From contig CM120646.1 in assembly GCA_051362555.1 (NCBI GenBank), positions 8,432,001 through 8,496,000 of the forward strand: a stretch of DNA of 64,000 nucleotides, written 5' to 3'. This document shows, in pieces, positions 8,890 to 64,000 of this stretch (the first letter of the stretch is position 1; the number at the start of each line of letters is the position of its first letter). Origin of the DNA: Lingula anatina (Eukaryota > Animalia > Brachiopoda). Under the pieces are notes generated by a model. The model was not told where the DNA came from. It did no database searches and was given only the letters and a program-made list of their open reading frames with translations. The translations under genes and the position numbers were made by a program.

Positions 8890-9028
8890 CATCTATTGTA
8901 CACATGGATGAGACATAACGTTGCTCATGCTGCTGTCTTTCACTGCTGCTTTTTCTATAGGAATTAGCCATGACCAGACAGGAAGTATCATTTCACCAAG
9001 AACCCACCTGCTGTACCGAAAGGGTCAC
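8890..9028 (-). other. Diverged copy of cassette exon A (139 nt)
   Basis: Minus strand: ttttcttctttttccag|GTGACCCTTTCGG...ATAGATG|gtatgt. Clearly homologous to the array cassettes but with many more substitutions than they show among themselves. Confidence 0.55.
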
Positions 9029-9157
9029 CTGGAAAAAGAAGAAAATATAATTTGAAAAAAAAAAAAAAAAAAAAAATGAAAATTAAATTTAAAAAAGTGA
9101 CAAATTTCCCAGACTAAAATAGATAAACATTAATAATTTTGATAAAGTTAAGATTAA

Positions 9158-9534
9158 AGGTACATACGAACCGAGCATCGGTGGAGTGTGGATTCCGAGT
9201 AACACATGTAAACCACTTCTACTATATTCTTATATAACTCAAATAAATTCGACATACCAAGGGATAAACTGAATAGATCCCTCGATCAGCCATAAAAGAC
9301 CTTTAGACTGCTCCTTTCTTTAAATTTATGGTTGTAAATTTAACCTACTTCCATGACCTACTTTCCTGCCCCATTGACATACAGCTTAGAATGCCAGCAG
9401 AAAAATCTGTTCAAACATCATTTTCGGGTAAAATTAAACAATGCCTTTTGGTAATTCCCTTAGTTATACTACTTGAAACTATATGCTGGCATTTGGTTGG
9501 TTTTTGTGACAAAAAATTGACTTTGTATGCATCT
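9158..9534. mobile_element. Kolobok-like non-autonomous element
   Basis: ttaa|aggtacatac ... gtatgcatct|ttaa: TTAA on both sides with short imperfect TIRs starting AG. It lies between degenerate satellite monomer segments. Confidence 0.5.
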
Positions 9535-10289
9535 TTAACCGTTGTGTATGTCTAATTAAAAAGATTTTTTAGGACAATATATTTTAGAAGACTGAAAATA
9601 GTTAAAGGTTAATAATTTTGACAAATCTATTCCAATATTTGTCAAATTTGGACAAATGGTGCCTAACATCAATGAAAATCTGTGATAAGCTCATCAGTTG
9701 ACTGAGTCCGATGAAAAAGAATTTATTGGACAATATATTTGAGAAAACTGAAAATCAAATTGAAATGTGAGGCCAATTCCATGGGATAAAATAGTTAAAC
9801 GTTAATAAATTTGATAAATCTGGTAATATATTTGTGAAATTTGCATATGATACTCAACAACAATGAAAATCTGTGATAAGCTCATCAGTTGACTGTATCC
9901 CATGAAAAAGAATTTATTGGACAATATATTTTAGAAAACTGAAATTTACATTGAAATGTCAGGCAAATTCCATGGCATGATATAGTTAAACGAAGATAAT
10001 TTTGACAAATCTAGTCCAATATTTGTGAAATTTGCACAAATGATGCCTAACAAGAATGAAAATCTGTGATAAGCTCATCAGTTGACTGCATCCTATGAAA
10101 AAGTTTTAATCGGACAATATATTTGAGAAAACTGAAAATTGCATTGAAAGGTGGGGCAAATTCCATGGCATAATATAGTTAAACGTCAATAATTTTGATA
10201 AATCTATTCCAATATATGTCAAATTTGGACAAATGATGCTTAACATCAATAAAAATCTGTGATAAGCTTACCAATTGACTGTGTGTAAT

Positions 10290-10790
10290 ATTAGTGTTGT
10301 TTATTGGCAATTTGTACGAGAAGAGTCAGAATGACCAAAAAAATTTTTTTCAATTTAACAACATATAATTTAGTCTCACATGAAACAGCAAATGTTATGA
10401 TTTGTGTTTGTTTGTGTTAGAGGTGGCAAATTACCCATAATTGTCATCTGGAAAACAACATATACCATTCAAGACTTCTCCTTACTACCAATACCACATG
10501 CAGATTCCTCCTTACAGTGGGTTTCTGGAATCAGGATTAGCGCACCATTTGACAATGTCCTAAATCTTCCCACGTACCAACTATTGTACACAAGGACGAG
10601 ACATAAAACTGCTCTTGCTGCTGCCTTTCACTGCCTGCTTTTTCTATAGGAATTAGCCATGACCAGACAGGAAGTATCAGTTCACCAAGGAGCCACCCTC
10701 TGTATGGAAAGGGTCACCTGGAAAAAGAACAATATATAATTTGAAAAAAGTGAAAATTAAATTTTAAAAAGTGACTCGGCTTAGAATAGT
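10290..10790. repeat. Full ~500-bp cassette (first of 14 copies)
   Basis: Near-identical copies are marked by the 81-aa pseudo-ORF at 10404, 11788, 18086, 22171, 25683, 28612, 30957, 34273, 35601, 44214, 53008, 58449, 60215 and 61982. Confidence 0.95.
10578..10717 (-). other. Putative 140-nt exon A (representative; lies at ORF start +174 to +313 in each full cassette)
   Basis: Minus strand: aaattatatattgttctttttccag|GTGACCCTTTCC...ACAATAGTTG|gtacgt. Polypyrimidine tract plus CAG|G acceptor and G|GTACGT donor. Stops in all three frames suggest a non-coding or UTR exon. Confidence 0.55.
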
Positions 10791-13700
10791 TTAACAATGA
10801 TAATTTTGACAAATCTGGTCCAATATTTGTGAAATTTGCACAAATGATGCTTAACAACAATAAAAATCTGTGATAAGCTTATCAGTTGACTGTGCCCCAT
10901 GAAAAAGATTTTTCGGAACAATATATTTGAGAAAACTGAAAATTACATTGAAAAGACTGGTAAATTCCATGGCATAATATAGTTAAACGTTAATAATTTT
11001 GACAAATCTGGTTGTATATTTGTGAAATTTGCACAAATGATACTTAACAACAATGAAAATTTGTGATAAGCTCATCAATTGACTGTGTAAAATGAAAAAG
11101 ATTTTTTCGGACAATATATTTTAGAAAACTGAAAATTGCATTGAAATGTCAGGCAAATTCCATGGCATAAAATAGTTAAACATTAATAATTTTTACAAAT
11201 CTGGTCCTATATTTGTGAAATTTGCACAAATGATACTTAACAACAATGAAAATCTGTGATAAGCTCATCAGTTGACTGTCTCCCATTAAAAAAGATTTTT
11301 CGGGACAATATATTTGAGAAAACTGAAAATTACATTGAAAAAACTGGCAAATTCCATGGGATAAAATAGTTAAACGTTAATAATTTTGACAAATCTAGTT
11401 CATTATTTGTCAAATTTGGACAAATGATGCCTAACATGAATGAAAATCTGTAATAAGCTCATCAGGTGACTGCATCCTATGAAAAAGATTTAATCGGACA
11501 ATATATTTGAGAAAACTGAAAATTACATTGAAAAGACGGGCAAATTTAATAGCATAAAAAAGTTAAACGTTAATAATTTTGACAAATCTAGTCCAATATT
11601 TGTCAAATTTGGACAAATGATGCTTAACATCAATAAAAATCTGTGATAAGCTTACCAATTGACTGTGTGTAATATTAGTGTTGTTTATTGGCAATTTGTA
11701 CGAGAAGAGTCAGAATGACCAAAAAATTTTTTTTCAATTTAACAACATATAATTTAGTCTCACATGAAACAGCAAATGTTATGATTTGTGTTTGTTTGTG
11801 TTAGAGGTGGCAAATTACCCATAACTGTCATCTGGAAAACAACATATACCATTCAAGACTTCTCCTTACTACCAATACCACATGCAGATTCCTCCTTACA
11901 GTGGGTTTCTGGAATCAGGATTAGCGCACCATTTGACAATGTCCTAAATCTTCCCACGTACCAACTATTGTACACAAGGACGAGACATAAAGTTGCTCTT
12001 GCTGCTGTCTTTCACTGCCTGCTTTTTCTATAGGAATTAGCCATGACCAGACAGGAAGTATCAGTTCACCAAAAAGCCACCCGCTGTATGGAAAGGGTCA
12101 CCTGGAAAAAGAACAATATATAATTTGAAAAAAGTGAAAATTAAATTTTCAAAAGTGACTCTGCTTAGAATAGTTAAACGATGATAATTTTGACAAATCT
12201 GGTCCAATATTTGTGAAATTTGCACAAATGATGCTTAACAACAATAAAAATCTGTGATAAGCTTATCAGTTGACTGTGCCCCATGAAAAAGATTTTTCAG
12301 AACAATATATTTGAGAAAACTGAAAATTACATTGAAAAGACTGGTAAATTCCATGGCATAATATAGTTAAACGTTAATAATTTTGACAAATCTAGTTCTA
12401 TATTTGTGAAATTTGCACAAATGATGCCTAACATGAATGAAAATCTGTGATAACCTCATCAGTTGACTGCAAACTATGAAAAAGATTTAATCGGACAATA
12501 TATTTGAGAAAACTGAAAACTGCATTGAAAGGTCGGGCAAATTCCATGGCATAAAATAGTTAAACGTTAATAATTTTTACAAATCTGGTCCTATATTTGA
12601 GAAATTTGCACAAATGATACTTAACAACAATGAAAATCTGTGATAAGCTCATCAATTGACTGTGTAAAATGAAAAAGATTTTTTTGGACAATATATTATA
12701 GAAAACTGAAAATTACATTCAAAAGGCGGGCAAATTCCATGGCATAAAAAAGTTAAACGTTAATAATTTTGACAAATCTATTCCAATATTTGTCAAATTT
12801 GGAAAAATGATGCTTACCAACAATAAAAATCTGTGATAAGCTCATCAGTTGACTGCATACTGTGAAAAAGATTTAATCAGACAATATATTTCAGAAAACT
12901 GAAAATTGCATTGAAATGTCAGGCAAATTCCATGGCATAAAATAGTTAAACGTTAATAATTTTTACAAATCTGGTCCTATATTTGAGAAATTTGCACAAA
13001 TGATACTTAACAACAATGAAAATCTGTGATAAGCTCATCAATTGACTGTGTAAAATGAAAAAGATTTTTTTGGACAATATATTATAGAAAACTGAAAATT
13101 ACATTCAAAAGGCGGGCAAATTCCATGGCATAAAAAAGTTAAACGTTAATAATTTTGACAAATCTATTCCAATATTTGTCAAATTTGGACAAATGATGCC
13201 TAACATGAATGAAAATCTGTGATAAGCTCATCAGTTGACTGCATCCTGTGAAAAAGATTTAATCAGACAATATATTTTAGAAAACTGAAAATTGCATTGA
13301 AATGTCAGGCAAATTCCATGGCATAAAATAGTTAAACGTTAAAGATTTTGACAAATCTATTCCAATATTTGTCAAATTTGCACAAATGATGCTTAACAAC
13401 AATAAAAATCTGAGATAAGCTCATCGGTTGACTGCATACTGTGAGAAAGATTAAATTAGACAATATATTTTAGAAAACTGAAAATTGCATTGAAATGTCA
13501 GGCAAATTCCATAGCATAAAATAGTTAAACGTTAAAGATTTTGACAAATCTATTCCAATATTTGTCAAATTTGGAAAAATGATGCTTAACAACAATAAAA
13601 ATCTGTGATAAGCTCATCAGTTGACTGCATCCTGTGAAAAAGATTTAATCAGACAATATATTTTAGAAAACTGAAAATTGCATTGAAATGTCAGGCAAAT

Positions 13701-15641
13701 TCCATGGCATAAAATAGTTAAACGTTAATAATTTTCACAAATCTGGTCCTATATTTGTGAAATTTGCACAAATGATGCCTAACATGAATGAAAATCTGTG
13801 ATAAGCTCATCAGTTGACTGCATCCTATGAAAAAGATTTAATCGGACAATATATTTGAGAAAACTGAAAATTACATTGAAAAGACTGGCAAATTCCATGG
13901 CATAATATAGTTAAACGTTAATAATTTTGACAAATCTAGTTCTATATTTGTGAAATTTGCACAAATGATGCCTAACATGAATGAAAATCAGTGATAAGCT
14001 CATCAGTTGACTGCAACCTATGAAAAAGATTTAAACGGACAATATATTTGAGAAAACTGAAAACTGCATTGAAAGGTCGGGCAAATTCCACGGCATAAAA
14101 TAGTTAAACGTTAATAATTTTGATAAATCTATTCCAATATTTGTCAAATTTGGACAAATGATACGTAACATGAATGAAAATCTGTGATAAGCTCATCAGT
14201 TGGCTGTCTGCCATGAAAAAGATTTTTCGGGACAATATATTTGAGAAAACTGAAAATTACATTGAAATGTCAGGCAAATTCCATGGGATAAAATAGTTAA
14301 ACATTAATAATTTTGACAAACCTAGTCCTATATTTGTGAAATTTGCACAAATGATGCTTAACAACAATAAAAATCTGTGATAAGCTCATCAGTTGACTGC
14401 AACCTATGAAAAAGATTTAAACTGACAATATATTTGAGAAAACTGAAAACTGCATTGAAAGGTCGGGCAAATTCCACGGCATAAAATAGTTAAACGTTAA
14501 TAATTTTGATAAATCTATTCCAATATTTGTCAAATTTGGACAAATGATGCCTAACATGAATGAAAATCTGTGATAAGCTCATCAGTTGACTGCATCCTAT
14601 GAAAAAGATTTAATCGGACAATATATTTGAGAAAACTGAAAATTACATTGAAAAGACTGGTAAATTCCATGGCATAATATAGTTAAACGTTAATAATTTT
14701 GACAAATCTGGTTACGTATTTGTGAAATTTGCACAAATGATACTTAACAACAATGAAAATCTGTGATAAGCTCATCAATTGACTGTGTAAAATGAAAAAG
14801 ATTTTTTTGGACAATATATTATAGAAAACTGAAAATTACATTCAAAAGGCGGGCAAATTCCATGGCATAAAATAGTTAAACGTTAATAATTTTGACAAAT
14901 CTATTCTAATATTTGTCAAATTTGGAAAAATGATGCTTAACAACAATAAAAATCTGTGATAAGCTCATCAGTTGACTGCATCCTGTGAAAAAGATTTAAT
15001 CAGACAATATATTTTAGAAAACTGAAAATTGCATTGAAATGTCAGGCAAATTCCATGGCATAAAATAGTTAAACGTTAATAATTTTTACAAATCTGGTCT
15101 TATATTTGTGAAATTTGCACAAATGATACTTAACAACAATGAAAATCTGTGATAAGCTCATCAGTTGACTGTCTCCCATGAAAAAGATTTTTCGGGACAA
15201 TATATTTGAGAAAACTAAAAATTACATTGAAATGTCAGGCAAATTCAATGGGATAAAATAGTTAAACATTAATAATTTTGACAAATCTGGTCCTATATTT
15301 GTAAAACTTTCACAAATGATGCTTAACAACAATAAAAATCTGTGATAAGCTTATCAGTTGACTGTGCCCCATGAAAAAGATTTTTCGGAACAATATATTT
15401 GAGAAAACTGAAAATTACATTGAAAAGACTGGTAAATTCCATGGCATAATATAGTTAAACGTTAATAATTTTGACAAATCTAGTTCTATATTTGTGAAAT
15501 TTGCACAAATGATGCCTAAAATGAATGAAAATCTGTGATAAGCTCATCAGTTGACTGCATCCTATGAAAAAGATTTAATCGGACAATATATTTGAGAAAA
15601 CTGAAAATTACATTGAAAAGATGGGCAAATTTAATAGCATA

Positions 15642-17856
15642 AACAAGGCAGCAAAGCTGTCAAATGTACAGACAAAAAGCAGACAATAACAATGCACAAA
15701 ACAGGCTACTGTCAATTCTGATGCAAAAGTACATTATGCTTAACTGCAAATTCAACATCAAAGTATAATTATGCTCAACAGGTAATACCAATGTAAGTGA
15801 AATGTGTAACAAGCGTAAGGCTTCGGGCCCATGGGAGTTTAAGTTCACACTTTGAATATGCCAGAATGAGAAAAATGAAAATTTCACATAAAACTGCTTA
15901 AATTCAATAATAAATGATAACCCATTTGAGCTGGCTTTCTTATTTGAACTGCATGCCAATCCTACAAATCATACTTGTAAGTTGAAAATACTAATAAGTA
16001 ACACAGTTTTCTTTTCATAATGTTTGTAGTAGCAGTGCAAAAAGATTTTTGTCAATTTTGATATAACATTACATAATAAATTACAGAATAATTATCACCA
16101 ATTTTTGATTATTGACTATAAATAGCATGGACAAGTAGAAAATTTGATTACCATTTGGCTTCATGTCCATGGGAGCTTCGAGTCCCACAATGAATATGCC
16201 AACATGATAAAAATGAATATTTCACTAAAATGTATAACTTCCAGAAAAAAAAGCCAATTAGACTGCTTTTCCAGCTCAGGCTGCATTTTAGTCCTTTGTT
16301 TCTTTTTTGAAAGTTTGACAATCATTAGTAACATGGTTTTCCCATAATGGTCATCATGGCAGCAGCACCCAAAATTGTGTTTTCTTCTATTTTAATGCAA
16401 TATTACATAATGCTTAACAGCATAATGACCATCAGTTTTTAATAATAAAAGATCCGTATCATGGATTTTCAGAAAATGTGATTAGCATGGGTCTTCAAGC
16501 TCGTGGAGGTTCTTAAGTCACACCTTGAAAATGCCAATATGTGAAAAATTAAATTTTCACCAAAAAAAAAAAAAAAAAAAAAGTTTAACTGGCAGAAAAA
16601 TTTACCAAACAAACTGCATTGCCCACTGAAGCTTTATTTAAGTCCCATGTTTCTTTCCTGTAAGTTTGAGAACAGTAAGTGACATGGTTTTCCTAAAATG
16701 GTCATCATGGGAGCAGTGTCCAAAATAGGGGTGTCTTCAAATTTTGATGCAATATTACATAATGTTTAACAGGATAATTACCATCAATATTTTTATAATA
16801 AAATATTAGTATCATGGATATTCAGAAAATGTTCCTAGCAAAGGTCTTCAGGCCCAAGGAACTTCAAAGTCACAACTTGAAAATGCCAAAATGTAGACAA
16901 GACAGCACTGTCCTGAAATGTGTTTTTTTTTCCATTTTTAACAATTTTTTAACATATAACAAAATTAACAATTTACTGCCATTTTTATATGATCAACTAA
17001 GAAAATTGATGAGATAGGAAAAATATCAATAGAACAGTGTTACATGTCCAATTTCCTCCATTCTGAGATTCTGAACATAGTGAATGAATGAATCTGACAA
17101 ACTGCAATGATATGAGTTTATTTCCATTTTTGAAACTCTATTATACAATACATGATAACAAGTTTACCATCATTTTTACATAATCAACTAACAATGTTGT
17201 AAAGATGCAGGAAATGTCAAACAAACACTTTTACGAATCTTATTAGTTAAATAATGAGACTGTTAACATGCCTAAGAATTGAATCTGAGGAAACGTGAAA
17301 AAAAGCATTACTTATAAAATAATGACCTCATTATGCTGATTTTCAAACTTGACCTGCGTTTTAGTAAGATTAATTACACCTGTGAGTTTCATGACAACAG
17401 GTCTATCGGTTTTCCTTGAAATGTGTTAACAGTGTTGCACATATGCTGAAAAGTGAAAAAAACAGCATAACTACTAAAATAGTGGCCCGATCATACTGAT
17501 TTTCGAACTTGATCTGCGTTTTAGTAAGATTGATTACTCCTGTGAATTTCATGACAATAAGCCTATCGGTTTTCCTTGAAATGTGTTAACAGTGTTGTAT
17601 ATATGCTAAAAAGTGAAAAAACAGCATAAATTCTACAATAATGGCCCGATCATGCTGATTTTCGAACTTGACCTGCGTTTTATAAATATTGGTCAGCTCT
17701 GTAAATATAAAGCCAAAAAGTAAAACTGTCTTCCACTTATGGTGTTAACGCTGAAAGTGCACAGCGACGGCGACGGCGACATGATCGGCGACGGCGATGG
17801 CGACGACAGACGCAGGTGATGGCAATATGTACAGACACATTTGTGTCTGTACATAA
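15642..17856 (-). mobile_element. Helentron-associated non-autonomous element (HINE/DINE-1-like), family A, copy 1
   Basis: One end is aacaag + hairpin ggcagc-aaa-gctgtc + subTIR atgtacagaca. The other end has ~160-bp core repeats, a (gacggc)n microsatellite and the palindrome atgtacagacac-attt-gtgtctgtacat. Inserted in the A-run of gcat^aaaaagtt with no TSD. Strand follows the DINE-1 convention. Confidence 0.85.
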
Positions 17857-20800
17857 AAAGTTAAACGTTAATAATTTTGACAAATCTAGTCCAATATTTG
17901 TCAAATTTGGACAAATGATGCTTAACATCAATAAAAATCTGTGATAAGCTTACCAATTGACTGTGTGTAACATTAGTGTTGTTTATTGGCAATTTGTACG
18001 AGAAGAGTCAGAATGACCAAAAAGATTTTTTTCAATTTAACAACATATAATTTAGTCTCACATGAAACAGCAAATGTTATGATTTGTGTTTGTTTGTGTT
18101 AGAGGTGGCAAATTACCAATAATTGTCATCTGGAAAACAACATATACCATTCAAGACTTCTCCTTACTACCAATACCACATGCAGATTCCTCCTTACAGT
18201 GGGTTTCTGGAATCAGGATTAGCGCACCATTTGACAATGTCCTAAATCTTCCCACGTACCAACTATTGTACACAAGGACGAGACATAAAGTTGCTCTTGC
18301 TGCTGTCTTTCACTGCCTGCTTTTTCTATAGGAATTAGCCATGACCAGACAGGAAGTATCAGTTCACCAAGAAGCCACCCGCTGTATGGAAAGGGTCACC
18401 TGGAAAAAGAACAATATATAATTTGAAAAAAGTGAAAATTAAATTTTCAAAGTTGACTCTGCTTAGAATAGTTAAACGATGATAATTTTGACAAATCTGG
18501 TCCAATATTTGTGAAATTTGCACAAATGATGCTTAACAACAATAAAAATCTGTGATAAGCTTATCAGTTGACTGTGCCCCATGAAAAAGATTTTTCAGAA
18601 CAATATATTTGAAAAAACTGAAAATTACATTGAAAAGACTGGTAAATTCCATGGCATAATATAGTTAAACGTTAATAATTTTGACAAATCTAGTTCTATA
18701 TTTGTGAAATTTGCACAAATGATGCCTAACATGAATGAAAATCTGTGATAAGCTCATCAGTTGACTGCATCCTGTGAAAAAGATTTAATCAGACAATATA
18801 TTTCAGAAAACTGAAAATGGCATTGAAATGTCAGGCAAATTCCATGGCATAAAATAGTTAAACGTTAATAATTTTTACAAATCTGGTCCTATATTTGAGA
18901 AATTTGCACAAATGATACTTAACAACAATGAAAATCTGTGATAAGCTCATCAATTGACTGTGTAAAATGAAAAAGATTTTTTTGGACAATATATTATAGA
19001 AAACTGAAAATTACATTCAAAAGGCGGGCAAATTCCATGGCATAAAAAAGTTAAACGTTAATAATTTTGACAAATCTATTCCAATATTTGTCAAATTTGG
19101 AAAAATGATGCTTACCAACAATAAAAATCTGTGATAAGCTCATCAGTTGACTGCATACTGTGAAAAAGATTTAATCAGACAATATATTTCAGAAAACTGA
19201 AAATTGCATTGAAATGTCAGGCAAATTCCATGGCATAAAATAGTTAAACGTTAATAATTTTTACAAATCTGGTCCTATATTTGAGAAATTTGCACAAATG
19301 ATACTTAACAACAATGAAAATCTGTGATAAGCTCATCAATTGACTGTGTAAAATGAAAAAGATTTTTTTGGACAATATATTATAGAAAACTGAAAATTAC
19401 ATTCAAAAGGCGGGCAAATTCCATGGCATAAAAAAGTTAAACGTTAATAATTTTGACAAATCTATTCCAATATTTGTCAAATTTGGACAAATGATGCCTA
19501 ACATGAATGAAAATCTGTGATAAGCTCATCAGTTGACTGCATCCTGTGAAAAAGATTTAATCAGACAATATATTTTAGAAAACTGAAAATTGCATTGAAA
19601 TGTCAGGCAAATTCCATGGCATAAAATAGTTAAACGTTAAAGATTTTGACAAATCTATTCCAATATTTGTCAAATTTGCACAAATGATGCTTAACAACAA
19701 TAAAAATCTGAGATAAGCTCATCGGTTGACTGCATACTGTGAGAAAGATTTAATCAGACAATATATTTTAGAAAACTGAAAATTGCATTGAAATGTCAGG
19801 CAAATTCCATGGCATAAAATAGTTAAACGTTAAAAATTTTGACAAATCTATTCCAATATTTGTCAAATTTGGAAAAATGATGCTTAACAACAATAAAAAT
19901 CTGTGATAAGCTCATCAGTTGACTGCATCCTGTGAAAAAGATTTAATCAGACAATATATTTTAGAAAACTGAAAATTGCATTGAAATGTCAGGCAAATTC
20001 CATGGCATAAAATAGTTAAACGTTAATAATTTTCACAAATCTGGTCCTATATTTGTGAAATTTGCACAAATAATGCCTAACATGAATGAAAATCTGTGAT
20101 AAGCTCATCAGTTGACTGCATCCTATGAAAAAGATTTAATCGGACAATATATTTGAGAAAACTGAAAATTACATTGAAAAGACTGGCAAATTCCACGGCA
20201 TAAAATAGTTAAACGTTAATAATTTTGATAAATCTATTCCAATATTTGTCAAATTTGGACAAATGATACATAACATGAATGAAAATCTGTGATAAGCTCA
20301 TCAGTTGGCTGTCTGCCATGAAAAAGATTTTTCGGGACAATATATTTGAGAAAACTGAAAATTACATTGAAATGTCAGGCAAATTCCATGGGATAAATTA
20401 GTTAAACATTAATAATTTTGACAAACCTAGTCCTATATTTGTGAAATTTGCACAAATGATGCTTAACAACAATAAAAATCTGTGATAAGCTCATCAGTTG
20501 ACTGCAACCTATGAAAAAGATTTAAACGGACAATATATTTGAGAAAACTGAAAACTGCATTGAAAGGTCGGGCAAATTCCACGGCATAAAATAGTTAAAC
20601 GTTAATAATTTTGATAAATCTATTCCAATATTTGTCAAATTTGGAAAAATGATGCCTAACATGAATGAAAATCTGTGATAAGCTCATCAGTTGACTGCAT
20701 CCTATGAAAAAGATTTAATCGGACAATATATTTGAGAAAACTGAAAATTACATTGAAAAGACTGGTAAATTCCATGGCATAATATAGTTAAACGTTAATA

Positions 20801-23081: not shown

Positions 23082-23325
23082 GCGCACCATTTGACAATGT
23101 CCTAAATCTTCCCACTTACCAACTATTGTACACAAGGACAAGACATAAAGTTGCTCTTGCTGCTGCCTTTCACTGCCTGCTTTTTCTATAGGAATTATCC
23201 ATGACCAGACAGGAAGTATCAGTTCACCAAAAAGCCACCCGCTGTATGGAAAGGGTCACCTGGAAAAAGAACAAAATATTATTTGAAAAAAGTGAAAATT
23301 AAATTTTAAAAAGTGACTAGGCTTA
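23082..23325. repeat. Truncated ~245-bp cassette (first of 9 copies), retaining complete exon A
   Basis: Identical junction acaatatattt|gcgcaccatttg at 23082, 24822, 26980, 27562, 32254, 41042, 43165, 54305 and 63279. Shared diagnostics: ggaattatcc, aaaaagcc, gactaggc. Confidence 0.92.
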
Positions 23326-40009: not shown

Positions 40010-40040
<31 letters not shown>

Positions 40041-48186: not shown

Positions 48187-48315
48187 TCTAGACTGCAACT
48201 GGCTAAAGCCAGTGGCGGAGGATTCCCCTGCAAAATAGGTGTAAAAATGCTCTTACAAGGTCATGTGAAGGTCATGGGTTAAATTTGACCCCATATTCTG
48301 AAAGAGCATGTGCGA

Positions 48316-48352
<37 letters not shown>

Positions 48353-48984: not shown

Positions 48985-49017
<33 letters not shown>

Positions 49018-49053
49018 CAAAAACAATAGTATTCCCCTATGGGGAATCCTAAT
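48187..49053 (-). mobile_element. HINE family B
   Basis: ctagactgcaactggctaaagccagtg hairpin plus subTIR aggattcccct; internal gaccttgacc motifs; (aat)n; terminal palindrome attcccctatggggaat. Contains a G29 run at 48319-48347. Confidence 0.8.
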
Positions 49054-51934: not shown

Positions 51935-54769
51935 AAAGATTTTATCGGACAATATATTTGAGAAAACTGAAAACTGCATCGAAAGGTCGGGCAAATTCCA
52001 CGGCATAAAATAGTTAAACGTTAATAATTTTGATAAATCTATTCCAATATTTGTCAAATTTGGACAAATGATGCCTAACATGAATGAAAATCTGTGATAA
52101 GCTCATCAGGTGACTGCATCCTGTGAAAAAGATTTAATCAGACAATATATTTTAGAAAACTGAAAATTGCATTGAAATGTCAGGCAAATTCCATGGCATA
52201 AAATAGTTAAACGTTAATAATTTTTACAAATCTGGTCCTATATTTGAGAAATTTGCACAAATGATACTTAACAACAATGAAAATCTGTGATAAGCTCATC
52301 AGTTGGCTGTCTGCCATGAAAAAGATTTTTCGGGACAATATATTTGAGAAAACTGAAAATTACATTGAAAAGACTGGTAAATTCCATGGCATAATATAGT
52401 TAAACGTTAATAATTTTGACAAATCTAGTTCTATATTTGTGAAATTTGCACAAATGATGCCTAACATGAATGAAAATCTGTGATAAGCTCATCAGTTGAC
52501 TGCAACCTATGAAAAAGATTTAATAGGACAATATATTTGAGAAAACTGAAAACTGCATTGAAAGGTCAGGCAAATTCCACGGCATAAAATAGTTAAACAT
52601 TAATAATTTTGATAAATCTATTCCAATATTTGTCAAATTTGGACAAATGATGCCTAACATGAATGAAAATCTGTGATAAACTCATCAGTTGACTGCATCC
52701 TATGAAAAAGATTTAATCAGACAATATATTTGAGAAAACTGAAAATTACATTGAAAAGACGGGCAAATTTAATAGCATAAAAAAGTTAAACGTTAATTTT
52801 GACAAATCTAGTCCAATATTTGTCAAATTTGGACAAATGATGCTTAACATCAATAAAAATCTGTGATAAACTTACCAATTGACTGTGTGTAATATTAGTG
52901 TTGTTTATTGGCAATTTGTATGAGAAGATTCAGAATGATCAAAAAGTTTTTTTTAAATTTAACAACATATAATTCAGTCTCACATGAAACAGCAAATGTT
53001 ATGATTTGTGTTTGTTTGTGTTAGAGGTGGCAAATTACCCATAATTGTCATCTGGAAAACAACATATACCATTCAAGACTTCTCCTTACTACCAATACCA
53101 CATGCAGATTCCTCCTTACAGTGGGTTTCTGGAATCAGGATTAGCGCACCATTTGACAATGTCCTAAATCTTCCCACGTACCATCTATTGTACACAAGGA
53201 CGAGACATAACGCTGCTCTTGCTGCTGTCTTTCACTGCCTGCTTTTTCTATAGGAATTAGCCATGACCAGACAGGAAGTATCAGTTCACCAAGAAGCCAC
53301 TCGCTGTATGGAAAGGGTCACCTGGAAAAAGAACAATATATAATTTGAAAAATGTGAAAATTAAATTTTAAAAAGTGACTCTGCTTAGAATAGTTAAACG
53401 ATGATAATTTTGACAAATCTGGTCCAATATTTGTGAAATTTGCACAAATGATGCTAAACAACAATAAAAATCTGTGATAAGCTCATCAGTTGACTGCATC
53501 CTGTAAAAAAGATTTAATCAGACAATATATTTTAGAAAACTGAAAATTGCATTGAAATGTCAGGGAAATTCCATGGCATAAAATAGTTAAACGTTAATAA
53601 TTTTTACAAATCTGGTCCTATATTTGAGAAATTTGCACAAATGATACTTAACAACAATGAAAATCTGTGATAAGCTCATCAATTGACTGTGTAAAATGAA
53701 AAAGATTTTTTTGGACAATATATTATAGAAAACTGAAAATTACATTAAAAAGACTGGTAAATTCCATGGCATAAAATAGTTAAACGTTAATAATTTTGAC
53801 AAATCTATTCCAATATTTGTCAAATTTGGAAAAATGATGCTTAACAACAATAAAAATCTGTGATAAGCTCATCAGTTGACTGCATCCTGTGAAAAAGATT
53901 TAATCAGACAATATATTTTAGAAAACTGAAAATTGCATTGAAATGTCAGGCAAATTCCATGGCATAAAATAGTTAAACGTTAATAATTTTGACAAATCTG
54001 GTCCTATATTTGTAAAACTTTCACAAATGATGCTCAACAACAATAAAAATCTGTAATAAGCTCATCAGTTGACTGTCTCCCATGAAAAAGATTTTTCGGT
54101 ATAATATATTTGAGAAAACGGAAAATTACATTGAAAAGACTGGCAAATTCAATGGCATAAAATAGTTAAAAGTTAATAATTTTGACAAATCTAGTTCTAT
54201 ATTTGTGAAATTTGCACAAATGATGCCTAACATGAATGAAAATCTGTGATAAGCTCATCAGTTGACTGCAACCTATGAAAAAGATTGAATCGGACAATAT
54301 ATTTGCGCACCATTTGACAATGTCCTAAATCTTCCCACGTACCAACTAATGTACACAAGGACGAGACATAAAGTTGCTCTTGCTGCTGCCTTTCACTGCC
54401 TGCTTTTTCTATAGGAATTATCCATGACCAGACAGGAAGTATCAGTTCACCAAAAAGCCACCCGCTGTATGGAAAGGGTCACCTGGAAAAAGAACAATAT
54501 ATAATTTGAAAAAAGTGAAAATTAAATTTTAAAAAGTGACTAGGCTTAGAATAGTTAAACGATGATAATTTTGACAAATCTGGTCCAATATTTGTGGAAT
54601 TTGCACAAAGGATGCTTAACAACAATAAAAATCTGTGATAAGCTTATCAGTTGACTGTGCCCCATGAAAAAGATTTTTCGGAACAATATATTTGAGAAAA
54701 CTGAAAATTACATTGAAAAGACTGGTAAATTCCATGGCATAACCCAGCGGGCAAATCAACATTGAATCA

Positions 54770-55270
54770 ATGTTGAATCAACGTTGATGGTCAACGTTGA
54801 AACTATGTTGATATGACGTTGACTATGAAAGTTGACTCAACGTTGAACCATCAAGGTTGAATCAACCTTGAGGTATCAAGGTTGAATCAACGTTGACGGT
54901 CAACGTTGAAACTATGTTGATATGACGTTGACTATGAAAGTTGACTCAACGTTGAACCATCAAGGTTGAATCAACCTTGAGGTATCAATGTTGAATCAAC
55001 GTTGACGGTCAACGTTGAAACTATGTTGATATGACGTTGACTATGAAAGTTGACTCAACGTTGAACCATCAAGGTTGAATCAACCTTGAGGTATCAATGT
55101 TGAATCAACGTTGACGGTCAATGTTGAAACTATGTTGATATGACGTTGACTATGAAAGTTGACTCAACGTTGAACCATCAAGGTTGAATCAACCTTGAAC
55201 CATCAAGGTTGAAACAACCTTGAGGTATCAATGTTGAATCAACATTGATACCTCAATGTTGAATCAATGT
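54770..55270. repeat. 109-bp subterminal tandem repeat (about 4 copies)
   Basis: cgttgayggtcaa starts at 54782, 54891, 55000 and 55109. Confidence 0.92.
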
Positions 55271-55740
55271 TGAAATAAAGTTGAATTTGAAAATTGAATT
55301 AACGTTGATATATCAATTAGGCTATCAGGATATTTGATTGAAATTTGCCTGATGGCTGAAGGTGTTCTCCATGATCAAGCATTTCTTGAAATAAAAAGAC
55401 TCCGATCTGAAAAGGGGGGGGAATTAGGAAAATTACCTACAAAAAAAAGGTAATTTCGGAAGAAAGGGGGGGGGTCTAGACCCCGGGACCGGGACCAGTT
55501 TGATGCTCAGTGTAACGGACCAAAACAGCCCGAACATAAAAAAACACAAACAACAACTACTACTAACTTAACTATGAATATAATATATTACAAACAATGA
55601 ACATACACTACATACACTAACTACATGTAATACTATCATGTTGCATAAACTTTAACATTTGTCATGTAATACTATCATGTTGCATAAACTTTAACATTTG
55701 TCAAATACAGTTAAATTCTAACAGATTCGTAGACAGTTAA

Positions 55741-55945
55741 GTTTTGAAGACGCAATGTCACAGTTTTACAAGTCCTTTTCTGTTAAACGTTCCTCCTGAT
55801 AGTGTGGGGTTTTGAAGACGCAATGTCACCGTTTTCCATGTCCTTATCTGTTGAACGATCCTCCTGATAGTGTGGCGTTTTGAAGACGCAATGTCACCGT
55901 TTTCCATGTCCTTGTCTGTTGAACGATCCTCCTGATAGTGTGGCC
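55741..55945. repeat. ~69-bp tandem repeat, 3 copies, inside the EnSpm-like element
   Basis: gttttgaagacgcaatgtcac...cctcctgatagtgtgg occurs three times. Confidence 0.85.
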
Positions 55946-56594
55946 TCACAAAGTACTGTTAATAAAGTACAGTTTTTGTACTGTAAAAGTGTTACACACT
56001 GTCCACACTCACGTGTTGCATCAGTTCATGTTATCCGGAGTCTCGCACTTAATAACAGTCCCGCACTTCATTTACATTGTACAAGTATGCAGGCACATAC
56101 GGTAATTACTCATAAAAATTAAACAACAAATTAGCTTTACTAAAATAATTATAACGTCACGTCAGGTAGTTAAAGATAATTTAAAGAATACAAAAACAAA
56201 GGGTCACCAGTCTAATTTTTTTCTCACGGCTAACTTAAATTTCCAGAAAAACAGGCATTTTTGGCTTTTTCAAGCTTTTTCTTCAACCTTGAGTAAAATT
56301 TTGTCAATTTGCCATAAAGTAAGGCTGGTGACCCTATGTTTTTTTCTTTTTCTTAAAGATAACCTGTTGAAAGTTAAAAAAAAAACTGACGACCGCTTTT
56401 TTCACAAAATTTATTTTAATGAAAAAGGGGTAAAACAAGCGTTTCATGAGGGGTAATTACCCCTATGCATACCTCTCTAGTGAGATAATCATTTAAAACT
56501 ATTATCAAGGTTATGATTAAGGTTATAAAGTTAAGGTTGGCCCAATGTTGAGATATAGTTGATATGTCAACATTGACAAAGGGTTTACAAACAC

Positions 56595-57000
56595 AGGTTG
56601 ATTCAATGTTGAAATCCTGTTGATCTATCAACATTGAAAACTGATTGACAAAGAAAGGTAAAATCAATGTTGAGACCCTGTTGATCTATCAACATTGACA
56701 ATTGGTTGACAAGAAAAGGTTGATTCAATGTTGAAATCCTGTTGATCTATCAACATTGAAAACTGTTTGACAAAGAAAGGTAAAATCAATGTTGAGACCC
56801 TGTTGATCTATCAACATTGACAATTGGTTGACAAGAAAAGGTTGATTCAATGTTGAAATCCTGTTGATCTATCAACATTGAAAATTGATTGACAAAGAAA
56901 GGTTAAATCAATGTTGAGACCCTGTTGATCTATCAACATTGACAATTGGTTGACAAGAAAAGATTGATTCAATGTTGAAATCTTGTTGATTTATCAATAT
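56595..57000. repeat. 122-bp (2 x 61) subterminal tandem repeat
   Basis: attcaatgttgaaatc starts at 56601, 56723, 56845 and 56967. Confidence 0.92.
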
Positions 57001-60000
57001 TGATGGATCAATATCATCTCAACCTATCCTCAATGTTGAATCAACGTTGAGTGCCCGCTGGGAATATAGTTAAACGTTAATAATTTTGACAAATCTAGTT
57101 CTATATTTGTGAAATTTGCACAAATGATGCCTAACATGAATGAAAATCTGTGATAAGCTCATCAGTTGACTGCAACCTATGAAAAAGATTTTATCGGACA
57201 ATATATTTGAGAAACTGAAAACTGCACTGAAAGGTCGGGCAAATTCCACGGCATAAAATAGTTAAACGTTGATAATTTTGATAAATCCATTCCAATATTT
57301 GTCAAATTTGGACAAATGATGCCTAACATGAATGAAAATCTGTGTTAAACTCATCAGTTGACTGCATCCTGTGAAAAAGATTTAATCAGACAGTATATTT
57401 TAGAAAACTGAAAAATTGCATTGAAATGTCAGGCAAATTCCATGGCATAAAATAGTTAAACGTTAATAATTTTTACAAATCTGGTCCTATATTTGAGAAA
57501 TTTGCACAAGTGATACTTAACAACAATGAAAATCTGTGATAAGCTCATCAGTTGGCTGTCTGCCATGGAAAAGATTTTTCGGGACAATATATTTGAGAAA
57601 ATTGAAAATTACATTGAAAAGACTGGTAAATTCCATGGCATAATATAGTTAAACGTTAATAATTTTGACAAATCAGGTCCTATATTTGAGAAATTTGCAC
57701 AAATGATACTTAACAACAATGAAAATCTGTGATAAGCTCATCAGTTGGCTGTCTGCCATGAAAAAGATTTTTCGGCACAATGTATTTGAGAAAACTGAAA
57801 ATTACATTGAAAAGACTGGTAAATTCCATGGCATAATATAGTTAAACATTAATAATTTTGACAAATCTAGTTCTATATTTGTGAAATTTGCACAAATGAT
57901 GCCTAACATGAATGAAAATCTGTGATAAGCTTATCAGTTGACTGCAACCTATGAAAAAGATTTAATCAGACAATATATTTGAGAAAACTGAAAACTGCAT
58001 TGAAAGGTCGGGCAAATTCCACGGCATAAAATAGTTAAACATTAATAATTTTAATAAATCTATTCCAATATTTGTCAAATTTGGACAAATAATGCCTAAC
58101 ATGAATGAAAATCTGTGATAAGTTCATCAGTTGACTGCATCCTATGAAAAAGATTTAATCGGACAATATATTTGAGAAAACTGAAAATTACATTGAAAAG
58201 ACGGGCAAATTTAATAGCATAAAAAAGTTAAACGTTAATAATTTTGACAAATCTAGTCCAATATTTGTCAAATTTGGACAAATGATGCTTAACATCAATA
58301 AAAATCTGTGATAAGCTTACCAATTGACTGTGTGTAATATTAGTGTTGTTTATTGGCAATTTGTACGAGAAGAGTCAGAATGACCAAAAAATTTTTTTCA
58401 ATTTAACAACATATTTAGTCTCATATGAAACAGCAAATGTTATGATTTGTGTTTGTTTGTGTTAGAGGTGGCAAATTACCCATAATTGTCATCTGGAAAA
58501 CAACATATACCATTCAAGACTTCTCCTTACTACCAATACCACATGCAGATTCCTCCTTACAGTGGGTTTCTGGAATCAGGATTAGCGCACCATTTGACAA
58601 TGTCCTAAATCTTCCCACGTACCAACTACTGTACACAAGGACGAGACATAAAGTTGCTCTTGCTGCTGTCTTTCATTGCCTGCTTTTTCTATAGGAATTA
58701 GTCATGATCAGACAGGAAGTATCAGTTCACCAAGAAGCCACCCGCTGTATGGAAAGGGTCACCTGGAAAAAGAACAATATATAATTTGAAAAAAGTGAAA
58801 ATTAAATTTTAAAAAGTGACTCGGCTTAGAATAGTTAAACGATGATAATTTTGAGAAATCTGGTCCAATAATTGTGTAATTTGCACAAATGATGCTTAAC
58901 AACAATAAAAATCTATGATAAGCTTATTAGTTGACTGTGCCCCATGAAAAAGATTTTTCGGAACAATATATTTGAGAAAATTGAAAATTACATTGAAAAG
59001 ACTGGTAAATTCCATGGCATAATATAGTTAAACGTTAATAATTTTGACAAATCTGGTTGTATATTTGTGAAATTTGCACAAATGATACTTAACAACAATG
59101 AAAATCTGTGATAAGCTCATCAATTGACTGTGTAAAATGAAAAAGATTTTTTCGGACAATATATTATAGAAAACTGAAAATTACATTCAAAAGGCGGGCA
59201 AATTCCATGGCATAAAATAGTTAAACGTTAATAATTTTGACAAATCTATTCCAATATTTGTCAAATTTGAAAAAATGATGCTAAACAACAATAAAAATCT
59301 GTGATAAGCTCATCAAGTGACTGCATCCTGTGAAAAAGATTTAATCAGACAATATATTTTAGAAAACTGAAAATTGCATTGAAATGTCAGGCAAATTCCA
59401 TGACATAAAATAGTTAAACGTTAATAATTTTTACAAATCTGGTCCTATATTTGAGAAATTTGCACAAATGATACTTAACAACAATGAAAATCTGTGATAA
59501 GCTCATCAGTTGGCTGTCTCTCATGAAAAAGATTTTTCGGGACAATATATTTGAGAAAACTGTAAATTACATTGAAAAGACTGGTAAATTCCATGGCATT
59601 ATATAGTTAAACGTTAATAATTTTGACAAATCTAGTTCTATATTTGTGAAATTTGCACAAATGATGCCTAACATGAATGAAAATCTGTGATAAGCTCATC
59701 AGTTGACTGCAACCTATGAAAAAGATTTAATCGGACAATATATTTGAGAAAACTGAAAACTGCATTGAAAGGTCAGGCAAATTCCACGGCATAAAATAGT
59801 TAAACATCAATAATTTTGATAAATCTATTCCAATATTTGTCAAATTTGGACAAATGATGCCTAACATGAATGAAAATCTGTGATAAGCTCATCAGTTGAC
59901 TGCATCCTATGAAAAAGATTTAATCAGACAATATATTTGAGAAAACTGAAAATTACATTGAAAAGACGGGCAAATTTAATAGCATAAAAAAGTTAATCGT

Positions 60001-63000
60001 TAATTTTGACAAATCTAGTCCAATATTTGTTAAATTTGGACAAATGATGCTTAACATCAATAAAAATCTGTGATAAACTTACCAATTGACTGTGTGTAAT
60101 ATTAGTGTTGTTTATTGGCAATTTGTATGAGAAGATTCAGAATGATTAAAAAGTTTTTTTTAAATTTAACAACATAAAATTCAGTCTCACATGAAACAGC
60201 AAATGTTATGATTTGTGTTTGTTTGTGTTAGAGGTGGCAAATTACCCATAATTGTCATCTGGAAAACAACATATACCATTCAAGACTTCTCCTTACTACC
60301 AATACCACATGCAGATTCCTCCTTACAGTGGGTTTCTGGAATCAGGATTAGCGCACCATTTGACAATGTCCTAAATCTTCCCACGTACCAACTACTGTAC
60401 ACAAGGACGAGACATAAAGTTGCTCTTGCTGCTGTCTTTCATTGCCTGCTTTTTCTATAGGAATTAGTCATGACCAGACAGGAAGTATCAGTTCACCAAG
60501 AAGCCACCCGCTGTATGGAAAGGGTCACCTGGAAAAAGAACAATATATAATTTGAAAAAAGTGAAAATTAAATTTTAAAAAGTGACTCGGCTTAGAATAG
60601 TTAAACGATGATAATTTTGAGAAATCTGGTCCAATAATTGTGTAATTTGCACAAATGATGCTTAACAACAATAAAAATCTATGATAAGCTTATTAGTTGA
60701 CTGTGCCCCATGAAAAAGATTTTTCGGAACAATATATTTGAGAAAATTGAAAATTACATTGAAAAGACTGGTAAATTCCATGGCATAATATAGTTAAACG
60801 TTAATAATTTTGACAAATCTGGTTGTATATTTGTGAAATTTGCACAAATGATACTTAACAACAATGAAAATCTGTGATAAGCTCATCAATTGACTGTGTA
60901 AAATGAAAAAGATTTTTTCGGACAATATATTATAGAAAACTGAAAATTACATTCAAAAGGCGGGAAAATTCCATGGCATAAAATAGTTAAACGTTAATAA
61001 TTTTGACAAATCTATTCCAATATTTGTCAAATTTGAAAAAATGATGCTAAACAACAATAAAAATCTGTGATAAGCTCATCAAGTGACTGCATCCTGTGAA
61101 AAAGATTTAATCAGACAATATATTTTAGAAAACTGAAAATTGCATTGAAATGTCAGGCAAATTCCATGGCATAAAATAGTTAAACGTTAATAATTTTTAC
61201 AAATCTGGTCCTATATTTGAGAAATTTGCACAAATGATACTTAACAACAATGAAAATCTGTGATAAGCTCATCAATTGGCTGTCTCCCATGAAAAAGATT
61301 TTTCGGGACAATATATTTGAGAAAACTGTAAATTACATTGAAAAAGACTGGTAAATTCCATGGCATAATATAGTTAAACGTTAATAATTTTGACAAATCT
61401 AGTTTTATATTTGTGAAATTTGCACAAATGATGCCTAACATGAATGAAAATCTGTGATAAGCTCATCAGTTGACTGCAACCTATGAAAAAGATTTTATCA
61501 GACAATATATTTGAGAAAACTGAAAACTGCATTGAAAGGTCAGGCAAATTCCACGGCATAAAATAGTTAAACATTAATAATTTTGATAAATCTATTCCAA
61601 TATTTGTCAAATTTGGACAAATGATGCCTAACATGAATGAAAATCTGTGATAAGCTCATCAGTTGACTGCATCCTATGAAAAAGATTTAATCAGACAATA
61701 TATTTGAGAAAACTGAAAATTACATTGAAAAGACGGGCAAATTTAATAGCATAAAAAAGTTAAACGTTAATTTTGACAAATCTAGTCCAATATTTGTCAA
61801 ATTTGGACAAATGATGCTTAACATCAATAAAAATCTGTGATAAACTTACCAATTGACTGTGTGTAATATTAGTGTTGTTTATTGGCAATTTGTATGAGAA
61901 GATTCAGAATGATCAAAAAGTTTTTTTTAAATTTAACAACATATAATTCAGTCTCACATGAAACAGCAAATGTTATGATTTGTGTTTGTTTGTGTTAGAG
62001 GTGGCAAATTACCCATAATTGTCATCTGGAAAACAACATATACCATTCAAGACTTCTCCTTACTACCAATACCACATGCAGATTCCTCCTTACAGTGGGT
62101 TTCTGGAATCAGGATTAGCGCACCATTTGACAATGTCCTAAATCTTCCCACGTACCATCTATTGTACACAAGGACGAGACATAACGCTGCTCTTGCTGCT
62201 GTCTTTCACTGCCTGCTTTTTCTATAGGAATTAGCCATGACCAGACAGGAAGTATCAGTTCACCAAGAAGCCACTCGCTGTATGGAAAGGGTCACCTGGA
62301 AAAAGAACAATATATAATTTGAAAAATGTGAAAATTAAATTTTAAAAAGTGACTCTGCTTAGAATAGTTAAACGATGATAATTTTGACAAATCTAGTCCA
62401 ATATTTGTGAAATTTGCACAAATGATGCTAAACAACAATAAAAATCTGTGATAAGCTCATCAGTTGACTGCATCCTGTAAAAAAGATTTAATCAGACAAT
62501 ATATTTTAGAAAACTGAAAATTGCATTGAAATGTCAGGGAAATTCCATGGCATAAAATAGTTAAACGTTAATAATTTTTACAAATCTGGTCCTATATTTG
62601 AGAAATTTGCACAAATGATACTTAACAACAATGAAAATCTGTGATAAGCTCATCAATTGACTGTGTAAAATGAAAAAGATTTTTTTGGACAATATATTAT
62701 AGAAAACTGAAAATTACATTAAAAAGACTGGTAAATTCCATGGCATAAAATAGTTAAACGTTAATAATTTTGACAAATCTATTCCAATATTTGTCAAATT
62801 TGGAAAAATGATGCTTAACAACAATAAAAATCTGTGATAAGCTCATCAGTTGACTGCATCCTGTGAAAAAGATTTAATCAGACAATATATTTTAGAAAAC
62901 TGAAAATTTCATTGAAATGTCAGGCAAATTCCATGGCATAAAATAGTTAAACGTTAATAATTTTGACAAATCTGGTCCTATATTTGTAAAACTTTCACAA

Positions 63001-64000
63001 ATGATGCTCAACAACAATAAAAATCTGTAATAAGCTCATCAGTTGACTGTCTCCCATGAAAAAGATTTTTCGGTATAATATATTTGAGAAAACGGAAAAT
63101 TACATTGAAAAGACTGGCAAATTCAATGGCATAAAATAGTTAAAAGTTAATAATTTTGACAAATCTAGTTCTATATTTGTGAAATTTGCACAAATGATGC
63201 CTAACATGAATGAAAATCTGTGATAAGCTCATCAGTTGACTGCAACCTATGAAAAAGATTGAATCGGACAATATATTTGCGCACCATTTGACAATGTCCT
63301 AAATCTTCCCACGTACCAACTAATGTACACAAGGACGAGACATAAAGTTGCTCTTGCTGCTGCCTTTCACTGCCTGCTTTTTCTATAGGAATTATCCATG
63401 ACCAGACAGGAAGTATCAGTTCACCAAAAAGCCACCCGCTGTATGGAAAGGGTCACCTGGAAAAAGAACAATATATAATTTGAAAAAAGTGAAAATTAAA
63501 TTTTAAAAAGTGACTAGGCTTAGAATAGTTAAACGATGATAATTTTGACAAATCTGGTCCAATATTTGTGGAATTTGCACAAAGGATGCTTAACAACAAT
63601 AAAAATCTGTGATAAGCTTATCAGTTGACTGTGCCCCATGAAAAAGATTTTTCGGAACAATATATTTGAGAAAACTGAAAATTACATTGAAAAGACTGGT
63701 AAATTCCATGGCATAATATAGTTAAACGTTAATAATTTTGACAAATCTAGTTCTATATTTGTGAAATTTGCACAAATGATGCCTAACATGAATGAAAATC
63801 TGTGATAAGCTCATCAGTTGACTGCAACCTATGAAAAAGATTTTATCGGACAATATATTAGAGAAAACTGAAAACTGCACTGAAAGGTCGGGCAAATTCC
63901 ATGGCATAAAATAGTTAAACGTTATTAATTTTGATAAATCCATTCCAATATTTGTCAAATTTGGACAAATGATGCCTAACATGAATGAAAATCTGTGATA

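What the first reader, a model, noticed from the sequence alone, without database searches (positions are those of the whole stretch)
8890..63460. Satellite array carrying 24 copies of a splice-competent exon-like cassette
Seen: 14 full, 9 truncated and 1 diverged copy of a non-satellite cassette are embedded in a 193-bp satellite, all in the same orientation. On the minus strand nearly all have a strong acceptor (ttctttttccag|G; CAAG|G-like variants at about 41220 and 43343) and a donor 139-140 nt later. All three frames contain stops. Inference: this could be a long non-coding or UTR transcript whose exon was amplified together with satellite 'introns' of variable monomer number. The result would be either a repetitive spliced RNA or a bank of alternative exons, rather than an ordinary satellite.
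Basis: partly seen in the sequence, partly recalled or inferred. Interest (0 to 1): 0.8.

Follow-up and report, generated by a model that had tools for sequence, protein, structure and literature searches.

The report
Satellite DNA copying a real exon
A block of repetitive satellite DNA carries 24 copies of an exon-like piece; RNA from related copies, likely at other places in the genome, is joined exactly at its splice signals, but these copies gave almost no RNA in the samples tested and were likely swept along as the satellite expanded.

Summary
Observation confirmed: 14 full, 9 truncated and 1 diverged cassette, all on one strand, in a 193-bp satellite. In 4 RNA runs, 63 reads whose bridging letters were printed join the base after this AG to donors 147, 202, 232, 252 or 283 nt into another unit. 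None of the listed joints uses nt 140, and reads run through it. Those reads are not from the array: 240 of 244 carry an allele absent from all 23 array copies. A Lingula anatina gene model holds the same exon, starting at the same base. The array has higher-order blocks duplicated at 97-99%, and the 9 truncated copies lack the donors used. Best reading: an exon of a spliced, stop-rich repeat-RNA family, passively amplified inside a satellite homologous to its own intron, silent in the runs tested. It resembles amphioxus 'mirages', intron-born satellites and Firre's repeated exon without being a member. An earlier scan note found mirage-like repeats on other DNA. Interest moderate.

The parts
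9555..64000 (.). 193-bp satellite array (136 intact monomers, higher-order blocks), open at the right end of the window
8743..9028 (-). Diverged border copy D of the exon (acceptor 9028; donor equivalent to nt 283 at 8743; nt-252 donor altered; 1-nt deletion)
6843..7030 (-). Continuation of D's downstream intron, homologous to the satellite monomer and to the lower end of full cassettes
10435..10717 (-).
11819..12101 (-). Full copy, exon nt 1-283; the copy on which RNA was laid
18117..18399 (-). Full copy, exon nt 1-283
22202..22484 (-). Full copy, exon nt 1-283
23078..23259 (-). Truncated copy (ends near nt 180, fused to a monomer)
24818..24999 (-). Truncated copy
25714..25996 (-). Full copy, exon nt 1-283
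26976..27157 (-). Truncated copy
27558..27739 (-). Truncated copy
28643..28925 (-). Full copy, exon nt 1-283
30988..31270 (-). Full copy, exon nt 1-283
32250..32431 (-). Truncated copy
34304..34586 (-). Full copy, exon nt 1-283
35632..35914 (-). Full copy, exon nt 1-283; a HINE sits 50 bp upstream of its acceptor
41038..41219 (-). Truncated copy, acceptor AG lost
43161..43342 (-). Truncated copy, acceptor AG lost
44245..44527 (-). Full copy, exon nt 1-283; a HINE sits 28 bp upstream of its acceptor
53039..53321 (-). Full copy, exon nt 1-283
54301..54482 (-). Truncated copy
58480..58762 (-). Full copy, exon nt 1-283
60246..60528 (-). Full copy, exon nt 1-283
62013..62295 (-). Full copy, exon nt 1-283
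63275..63456 (-). Truncated copy
15643..17859 (-). HINE (non-autonomous Helentron) insertion G1
35964..40108 (-). HINE insertion G2
44556..47262 (-). HINE insertion G3
49050..51937 (-). HINE insertion G4, its 3' end missing and preceded by another repeat (about 48187-49050)
54743..57062 (.). Insertion with terminal inverted repeats and internal 109- and 61-bp tandem repeats
7031..8667 (.). Insertion with terminal inverted repeats in D's downstream intron
9158..9534 (.). Short TTAA-flanked inverted-repeat element between D and the array

Best explanation
The cassette is a copy of an exon whose relatives, likely at other loci, are joined in RNA at this same acceptor, and at this locus it was likely amplified passively inside a 193-bp satellite homologous to its own intron, leaving copies that gave almost no RNA in the runs tested. 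Steps: (1, shown) minus-strand RNA of the family joins the base after the AG to GT/GC donors of another unit; (2, shown) the family has stops in all frames and no protein family, so (inferred) the RNA is non-coding; (3, shown) both flanks of the cassette and of the old border copy D align to the monomer; (inferred) a 193-bp part of the intron was duplicated and spread by unequal crossing-over, carrying the exon along in higher-order blocks; (4, shown) one deletion class lacking all donors in use was amplified nine times, so (inferred) amplification was blind to splicing; (5, shown) HINE and other transposons later inserted.
For: Joints: of the reads laid, 63 have printed bridging or loose-end letters that put the exon start against position 11955 (2 reads), 11900 (5), 11870 (12), 11849/50 (29) or 11819 (15); 79 if joints with unprinted letters are added. 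Four of these sites are followed by GTA in the window (7 of 168 positions are; post hoc p about 3e-6); the fifth is GC in the reads' allele. Unspliced acceptors are also seen (X3 12 loose ends, X9 4 reads). First-mate direction 0.91, 0.83, 0.99 in three stranded runs. Independent: Lingula anatina RefSeq model LOC106159107 matches the exon at 78% over 37 aa, and its likeness begins at the exon's first codon. Not from the array: 240 of 244 and 250 of 253 reads carry alleles absent from 23 of 23 array copies; only 11 of 892 reads are 99% alike or more. Passive amplification: recurring monomer order around cassettes, four blocks of 1.7-2.8 kb duplicated at 97-99%; truncated copies share one breakpoint and lack donors 202-283. 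Monomer homology of the flanks: E 6.7e-9 and 5.3e-5; scores 121 and 50 against shuffle maxima 46 and 43.
Against: Only 4 runs were laid on an array copy, about 6% of each (30% for X9), tissues unknown; a germline- or stage-specific transcript would be missed. The RNA animals are linked only by a species label and may be a lineage with fewer array copies (X1 does have both-strand reads over the array-type flank). 14 of 14 full copies keep the acceptor and donors 202-283, and nt 141-283 varies least among them (pi 0.007 against 0.029-0.042), as constraint would predict. 67 of 892 reads are 95-99% alike. No genome was held, so the expressed loci were not seen, and the direction intron-to-satellite is not shown. 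The upper-flank alignment (50 against 43) is marginal.
Confidence: 0.6

Rival explanations
1. The array itself is an active multi-exon non-coding gene, transcribed in a tissue or stage not sampled, with satellite introns of 0.7-8.5 kb.
For: All 14 full copies keep the acceptor and the donors that the family uses; all copies face one way; spacings are plausible introns; low diversity over nt 141-283; a few reads at 95% or more.
Against: At most 4 of 244 reads carry the array allele at 11977; reads over the array-type acceptor run on unspliced and on both strands in X1; 9 truncated copies lack the donors and 2 lack the AG; HINEs inserted 28-50 bp from two acceptors; no promoter or first exon seen in the window.
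Confidence: 0.18
2. The joints are back-splices (circular RNA from one exon) or RNA from processed DNA copies, not linear unit-to-unit splicing; the array is passive either way.
For: Short reads laid on one unit cannot tell tandem exons from circles; the DNA check of joined forms was not given (table 5b); one run with 25 junction reads has an unspecified library.
Against: Three of the four runs are polyA or oligo-dT; five donors share one acceptor; unspliced forms coexist; the Lingula model joins the exon to unrelated upstream sequence.
Confidence: 0.1
3. The whole array is the over-expanded central repeat region of an old Helentron (HINE) that captured the exon, as Helitrons capture and splice gene fragments.
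For: An unpaired HINE-like 3' end at 4749 followed by a HINE-type 337-bp unit and old monomers; HINEs carry satellite-like arrays in oyster (PMC7492417, passages).
Against: Neither cassette nor monomer aligns with any internal repeat of G1-G4 above shuffles, bar one borderline score; no matching 5' end in the window; the 4749 end may be a truncated old insertion.
Confidence: 0.12
4. The cassette is a decayed protein-coding exon.
For: One frame is open for 58 codons and matches a RefSeq protein; array copies are one base out of frame against it.
Against: That protein stands alone (1 of 2 candidates, itself; none), the exon part ends a transposon-like fragment, no Pfam family reaches its cut-off, and the donors in use give window exon lengths of mixed frame.
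Confidence: 0.06
5. Ordinary composite satellite whose splice-like motifs are chance.
Against: RNA joints fall exactly on the acceptor and on GT/GC donors; the Lingula model starts at the same base.
Confidence: 0.04

Closest known systems
Amphioxus 'mirage' minisatellites (Adh3, BflGb6, BflGb9; PMC3087553, passages read)
   Same: Tandem copies of an exon-intron boundary with intact AG/GT signals, concerted evolution, diverged border unit, copies apparently not used in splicing.
   Different: Mirages are 10-160 bp head-to-tail units inside a coding gene; here a whole 283-nt exon recurs every 0.6-8.8 kb, separated by a separate 193-bp satellite over at least 54 kb, and no host gene is seen.
Intron-derived satellites such as CapA from NOS1AP (bioRxiv 10.1101/213868, abstract and opening text read)
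   Same: Satellite monomer homologous to intronic sequence.
   Different: Here the neighbouring exon is carried along in the array; ancestry in outgroups could not be tested.
Firre lncRNA and its repeated exon RRD (PMC4820808, passages; circular isoforms PMC5910558, abstract)
   Same: A non-coding RNA built from repeated exons spliced to each other, with repeats in the introns; circles are possible.
   Different: RRD is confined to one locus and has a shown function; this family has several allele types in RNA and at least one other locus, no function is known, and the array copies were not seen in spliced RNA.
HINE / non-autonomous Helentrons (Cg_HINE; PMC7492417, passages)
   Same: The insertions G1-G4 have the HINE anatomy.
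   Different: The cassette and the 193-bp monomer are not parts of G1-G4.

Membership tests
Amphioxus mirage repeats | Tandem duplication of an exon-intron boundary with splice signals kept | tested here: met
   22 of 24 AG, 14 of 14 full copies with donors
Amphioxus mirage repeats | Short (10-160 bp) head-to-tail units | tested here: not met
   acceptors 582-8794 bp apart, separated by satellite
Amphioxus mirage repeats | Lies in an expressed host gene whose authentic exon is spliced | tested here: inconclusive
   border copy D has depth 2.4 or less and 20 of 20 reads at 8991 carry a non-D allele; no gene found in 1-9560
Amphioxus mirage repeats | Concerted evolution with diverged border | tested here: met
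   array copies 0-13 differences, D 17-25, over about 200 bases
Firre-like local-repeat lncRNA | Repeated exon spliced unit to unit in RNA | tested here: met
   for the family, 63 decoded junction reads; linear or circular not told
Firre-like local-repeat lncRNA | Repeat confined to one locus | tested here: not met
   814 of 892 reads under 95% alike, several allele types, a Lingula gene model with another upstream part
Firre-like local-repeat lncRNA | This locus's copies are in the mature RNA | tested here: not met
   at most 4 of 244 reads with the array allele in 4 runs; other tissues untested
Firre-like local-repeat lncRNA | RNA function (nuclear retention, protein binding) | not testable with these tools
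   needs experiments
Alternative-exon bank (Dscam type; features recalled) | Frame-keeping, diversified coding exons | tested here: not met
   stops in all frames in 24 of 24; pi 0.007-0.042
snoRNA or miRNA host array (SNHG14, C19MC type; features recalled) | A known structured RNA in each intron | tested here: not met
   0 Rfam hits at gathering score; best E 0.63, far under cut-off; fold z-scores -0.64 to +1.42
Intron-derived satellite (CapA type) | Monomer homologous to intronic sequence | tested here: met
Intron-derived satellite (CapA type) | Low-copy intronic ancestor in outgroups | not testable with these tools
   no genome held; 9 metagenome matches were chance
HINE (for insertions G1-G3) | 5' subterminal repeat with inverted repeat, microsatellite, central tandem repeats, 3' subterminal repeat and palindrome, T-rich target without duplication | tested here: met
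   features from PMC7492417 passages; G4 lacks the 3' end
HINE (for the cassette or the whole array) | Cassette or monomer is an internal HINE repeat between paired ends | tested here: inconclusive
   no alignment to G1-G4 internal repeats; unpaired 3' end at 4749, other end would lie outside the window

The most novel reading that the evidence does not exclude
A family of spliced non-coding RNAs built from one repeated exon, in which the intron has turned into a satellite and drives exon copy number: this array is a live 14-exon-plus transcript (linear or circular) in germline or embryo, a satellite that is also a gene.
Probability: 0.18. Interest if true: 0.72.

Novelty: new variant of a known kind. 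Interest (0 to 1): 0.45.

Why it matters
It catches a satellite in the act of arising from, and multiplying, part of a spliced transcription unit, with the older border copy, the expressed relatives and the broken derivatives all in view. That makes two old questions testable at one locus: where satellite monomers come from, and whether exons copied by tandem turnover get recruited (the intron-gain model proposed for mirages). It also points to an undescribed repeated-exon RNA family with one acceptor and five donors. If the array is silent everywhere, it is a good case study and not a new system.

Tried and rejected
Own genome: none held. No RNA holder listed by the run index; runs came by species label. 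A 13-nt micro-exon reading (AG at nt 270, GT at nt 283) was dropped: junction reads run on through nt 253-270, so that AG is exonic in them. An ATG frame in copy D (27 codons) was dropped: it rests on a 1-nt deletion not listed in reads or found in array copies, no Pfam hit. A 270-bp internal duplication in the cassette and a paralogous exon at 4526 were not above shuffles. Rfam, folding: nothing. Metagenome scan: 9 matches, none extending beyond the pattern. P0001, P0003-P0005 are weak summed-repeat hits at 29% or less, or without a passing stretch, and were set aside. The DIRS-like label for the first 194 residues of P0002 is recalled; tools gave only Phage_int_SAM_1 at E 0.07 and an Atlas lead at 0.75. 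Literature searches found no paper on a satellite with embedded spliced exons; the library lacks most subscription journals, and no supplements were read. Earlier-findings look-ups by place and by sequence gave nothing relevant.
Full report
Observation. The window is AT-rich animal DNA without long ORFs. From 9555 to the right end it is a 193-bp satellite. One cassette used as query found 14 full, 9 truncated and 1 diverged copy (D, 8669-9101, 81%), all in one orientation. On the minus strand 22 of 24 have a pyrimidine tract and CAG|G; 41219 and 43342 have lost the AG; 24 of 24 have GT at nt 140 (139 in D); all have stops in three frames. The motif alone is weak: it arises at 0.084 per kb in shuffles, and the copies descend from one event.

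Array anatomy. 136 intact monomers differ by 11.6% on average and 3.9% within types; the order of types recurs around cassettes, and four blocks of 1.7-2.8 kb are duplicated at 97-99%. The nine truncated copies share one breakpoint near nt 180, fused to a monomer, and shared substitutions, so they arose once. Both ends of a full cassette align to overlapping parts of the monomer (scores 121 and 50 against shuffle maxima 46 and 43), and D has monomer-like sequence on both sides (E 5.3e-5 at 9076-9147; E 6.7e-9 at 6876-7000, beyond a 1.6-kb inverted-repeat insertion). So the monomer is homologous to the intron around the exon; which came first is inferred, not shown. The large gaps G1-G3 have the HINE anatomy given in PMC7492417 (passages): subterminal repeat with inverted repeat, microsatellite, 160-bp core repeats, 3' subterminal repeat and stem-loop, T-rich target; G4 lacks its 3' end.

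RNA. No genome was held. Nine RNA runs were offered by species label; I laid 4 on 1-9560 and 4 on one full cassette, 11680-12170, at 80% likeness; X1 was in both, 7 of 9 runs were used, about 6% of each was read (25-30% for X7, X9), tissues unknown. On the cassette 892 reads were laid: 11 at 99% or more, 67 at 95-99%, 266 at 90-95%, 548 below 90%. In three stranded runs 0.91, 0.83 and 0.99 of depth has the first mate on +, which in the usual library means minus-strand RNA (inference). None of the 9 listed joints, 12 of 15 shown bridging rows or 24 of 100 shown loose ends lies there.

The joints. Comparing the printed bridging letters with the window shows one pattern: the first base after the acceptor AG, in a long form like the window's or a short form lacking about 60 nt, is joined to position 11955 (2 reads), 11900 (5), 11870 (12), 11849/50 (29) or 11819 (15) of a unit; 63 reads in all, 79 with joints whose letters were not printed. 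On the minus strand these are donors at exon nt 147, 202, 232, 252 and 283. Four are followed by GTA in the window (GTAAGG twice, GTATAT, GTAATT); 7 of 168 positions are, giving about 3e-6 post hoc; the fifth is GC in the reads' allele. 25 reads in X6 abut exactly the base equivalent to 12101. Unspliced acceptors occur too (X3 12 loose ends, X9 4 reads). This is splicing from one unit into another unit or into itself; short reads cannot tell chains from circles, and the DNA check was not given.

Whose RNA. At 11977, 240 of 244 reads, and at 11926, 250 of 253, carry an allele found in none of the 23 array copies; at 11961 and 11965 most reads carry alleles found in none of the 24, D included. 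Over D, depth was 2.4 or less and 20 of 20 reads at 8991 had a non-D base. Reads that cross the array-type acceptor in X1 run on unspliced on both strands at depth 1-5. The expressed copies are therefore other loci or other lineages; the array is close to silent in these runs. Caveats: species label only, small share read, unknown tissues.

Outside support. The 58-codon frame 11924-12097 was scored against 1.84 billion proteins: 5 hits at E 0.001 or better. One is real: Lingula anatina LOC106159107 (XP_023932633.1, XP_013390745.1), 78% over 37 residues. Its likeness begins at the exon's first codon in phase 1 and the window copies are one base out of frame against it; upstream lies an unrelated part that looks like a DIRS transposon fragment (recalled motifs; Pfam only E 0.07; Atlas lead 0.75). 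I saw the protein, not the gene's exon map, so use of the acceptor there is inferred. No other protein holds the segment and no Pfam family passes, so it is most likely an incidental frame in a non-coding exon. The window is probably from Lingula or a relative (inference). The other four hits were weak repeat sums and were set aside.

Selection on the array. All 14 full copies keep the acceptor and donors 202-283, and nt 141-283 is the least variable part among them (pi 0.007 against 0.029-0.042), which fits constraint or recent homogenisation. Against function: 9 truncated copies have none of these donors, 2 lack the AG, and HINEs sit 28 and 50 bp from two acceptors. D differs from the array majority at 11 of 140 bases in nt 1-140 and 25 of 143 in nt 141-283 (p 0.02); unexplained.

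Mechanism. Shown: family RNA joined at this acceptor; array copies nearly absent from it; flanks homologous to the monomer; block duplications; broken derivatives amplified. Inferred: a unit of exon plus intron sat here (D is its relic), a 193-bp part of the intron was duplicated and spread by unequal exchange, and the exon rode along. Confidence 0.6; a live array in an unsampled tissue 0.18.

Known kinds. It fails a defining feature of mirages (short head-to-tail unit) and of Firre-type repeats (one locus, copies in the RNA). Helitron exon capture is known (PMC4528327, search listing only). No Rfam family or stable fold. Searches found no report of a satellite with embedded spliced-type exons; that library is incomplete and no supplements were read. 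Verdict: new variant of a known kind, interest 0.45.

Noticed in passing
window 1-1595: Plus-strand RNA (first mate on -) at depth up to 230 in X1 and X2 only, with many indels against the window; probably a related locus, condition-specific.
   Followed up: no
window 4749-5470: Unpaired old HINE-like 3' end, a 337-bp-type unit shared with G1-G4, and two decayed 193-bp monomers, well left of the array.
   Followed up: partly
window 4526: The only strong minus-strand acceptor motif outside the cassettes; no homology to the cassette above shuffles.
   Followed up: partly
window 5740-6500: Heavily covered dispersed repeats in all four runs; 6062-6380 is almost all one strand in stranded runs.
   Followed up: no
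window 54743-57062: Inverted-repeat element with near-palindromic 109-bp and 61-bp internal tandem repeats at its two ends.
   Followed up: no
window 49760-51372: Four 401-bp repeats at 97% inside HINE G4, each made of two related halves of about 192 and 209 bp, unrelated to the 193-bp satellite.
   Followed up: partly
window 34931-35072: A single 141-bp deleted monomer.
   Followed up: no
P0002 / P0006 (Lingula anatina LOC106159107): Gene model that looks chimeric: a transposon-like fragment joined to this exon; its two isoforms end in similar but different tails, which may be another repeated exon.
   Followed up: partly
window 8743-9028 against array copies: D is closer to the array in nt 1-140 (11 of 140) than in nt 141-283 (25 of 143), while the array copies among themselves show the reverse; gene conversion or constraint, unexplained.
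   Followed up: partly
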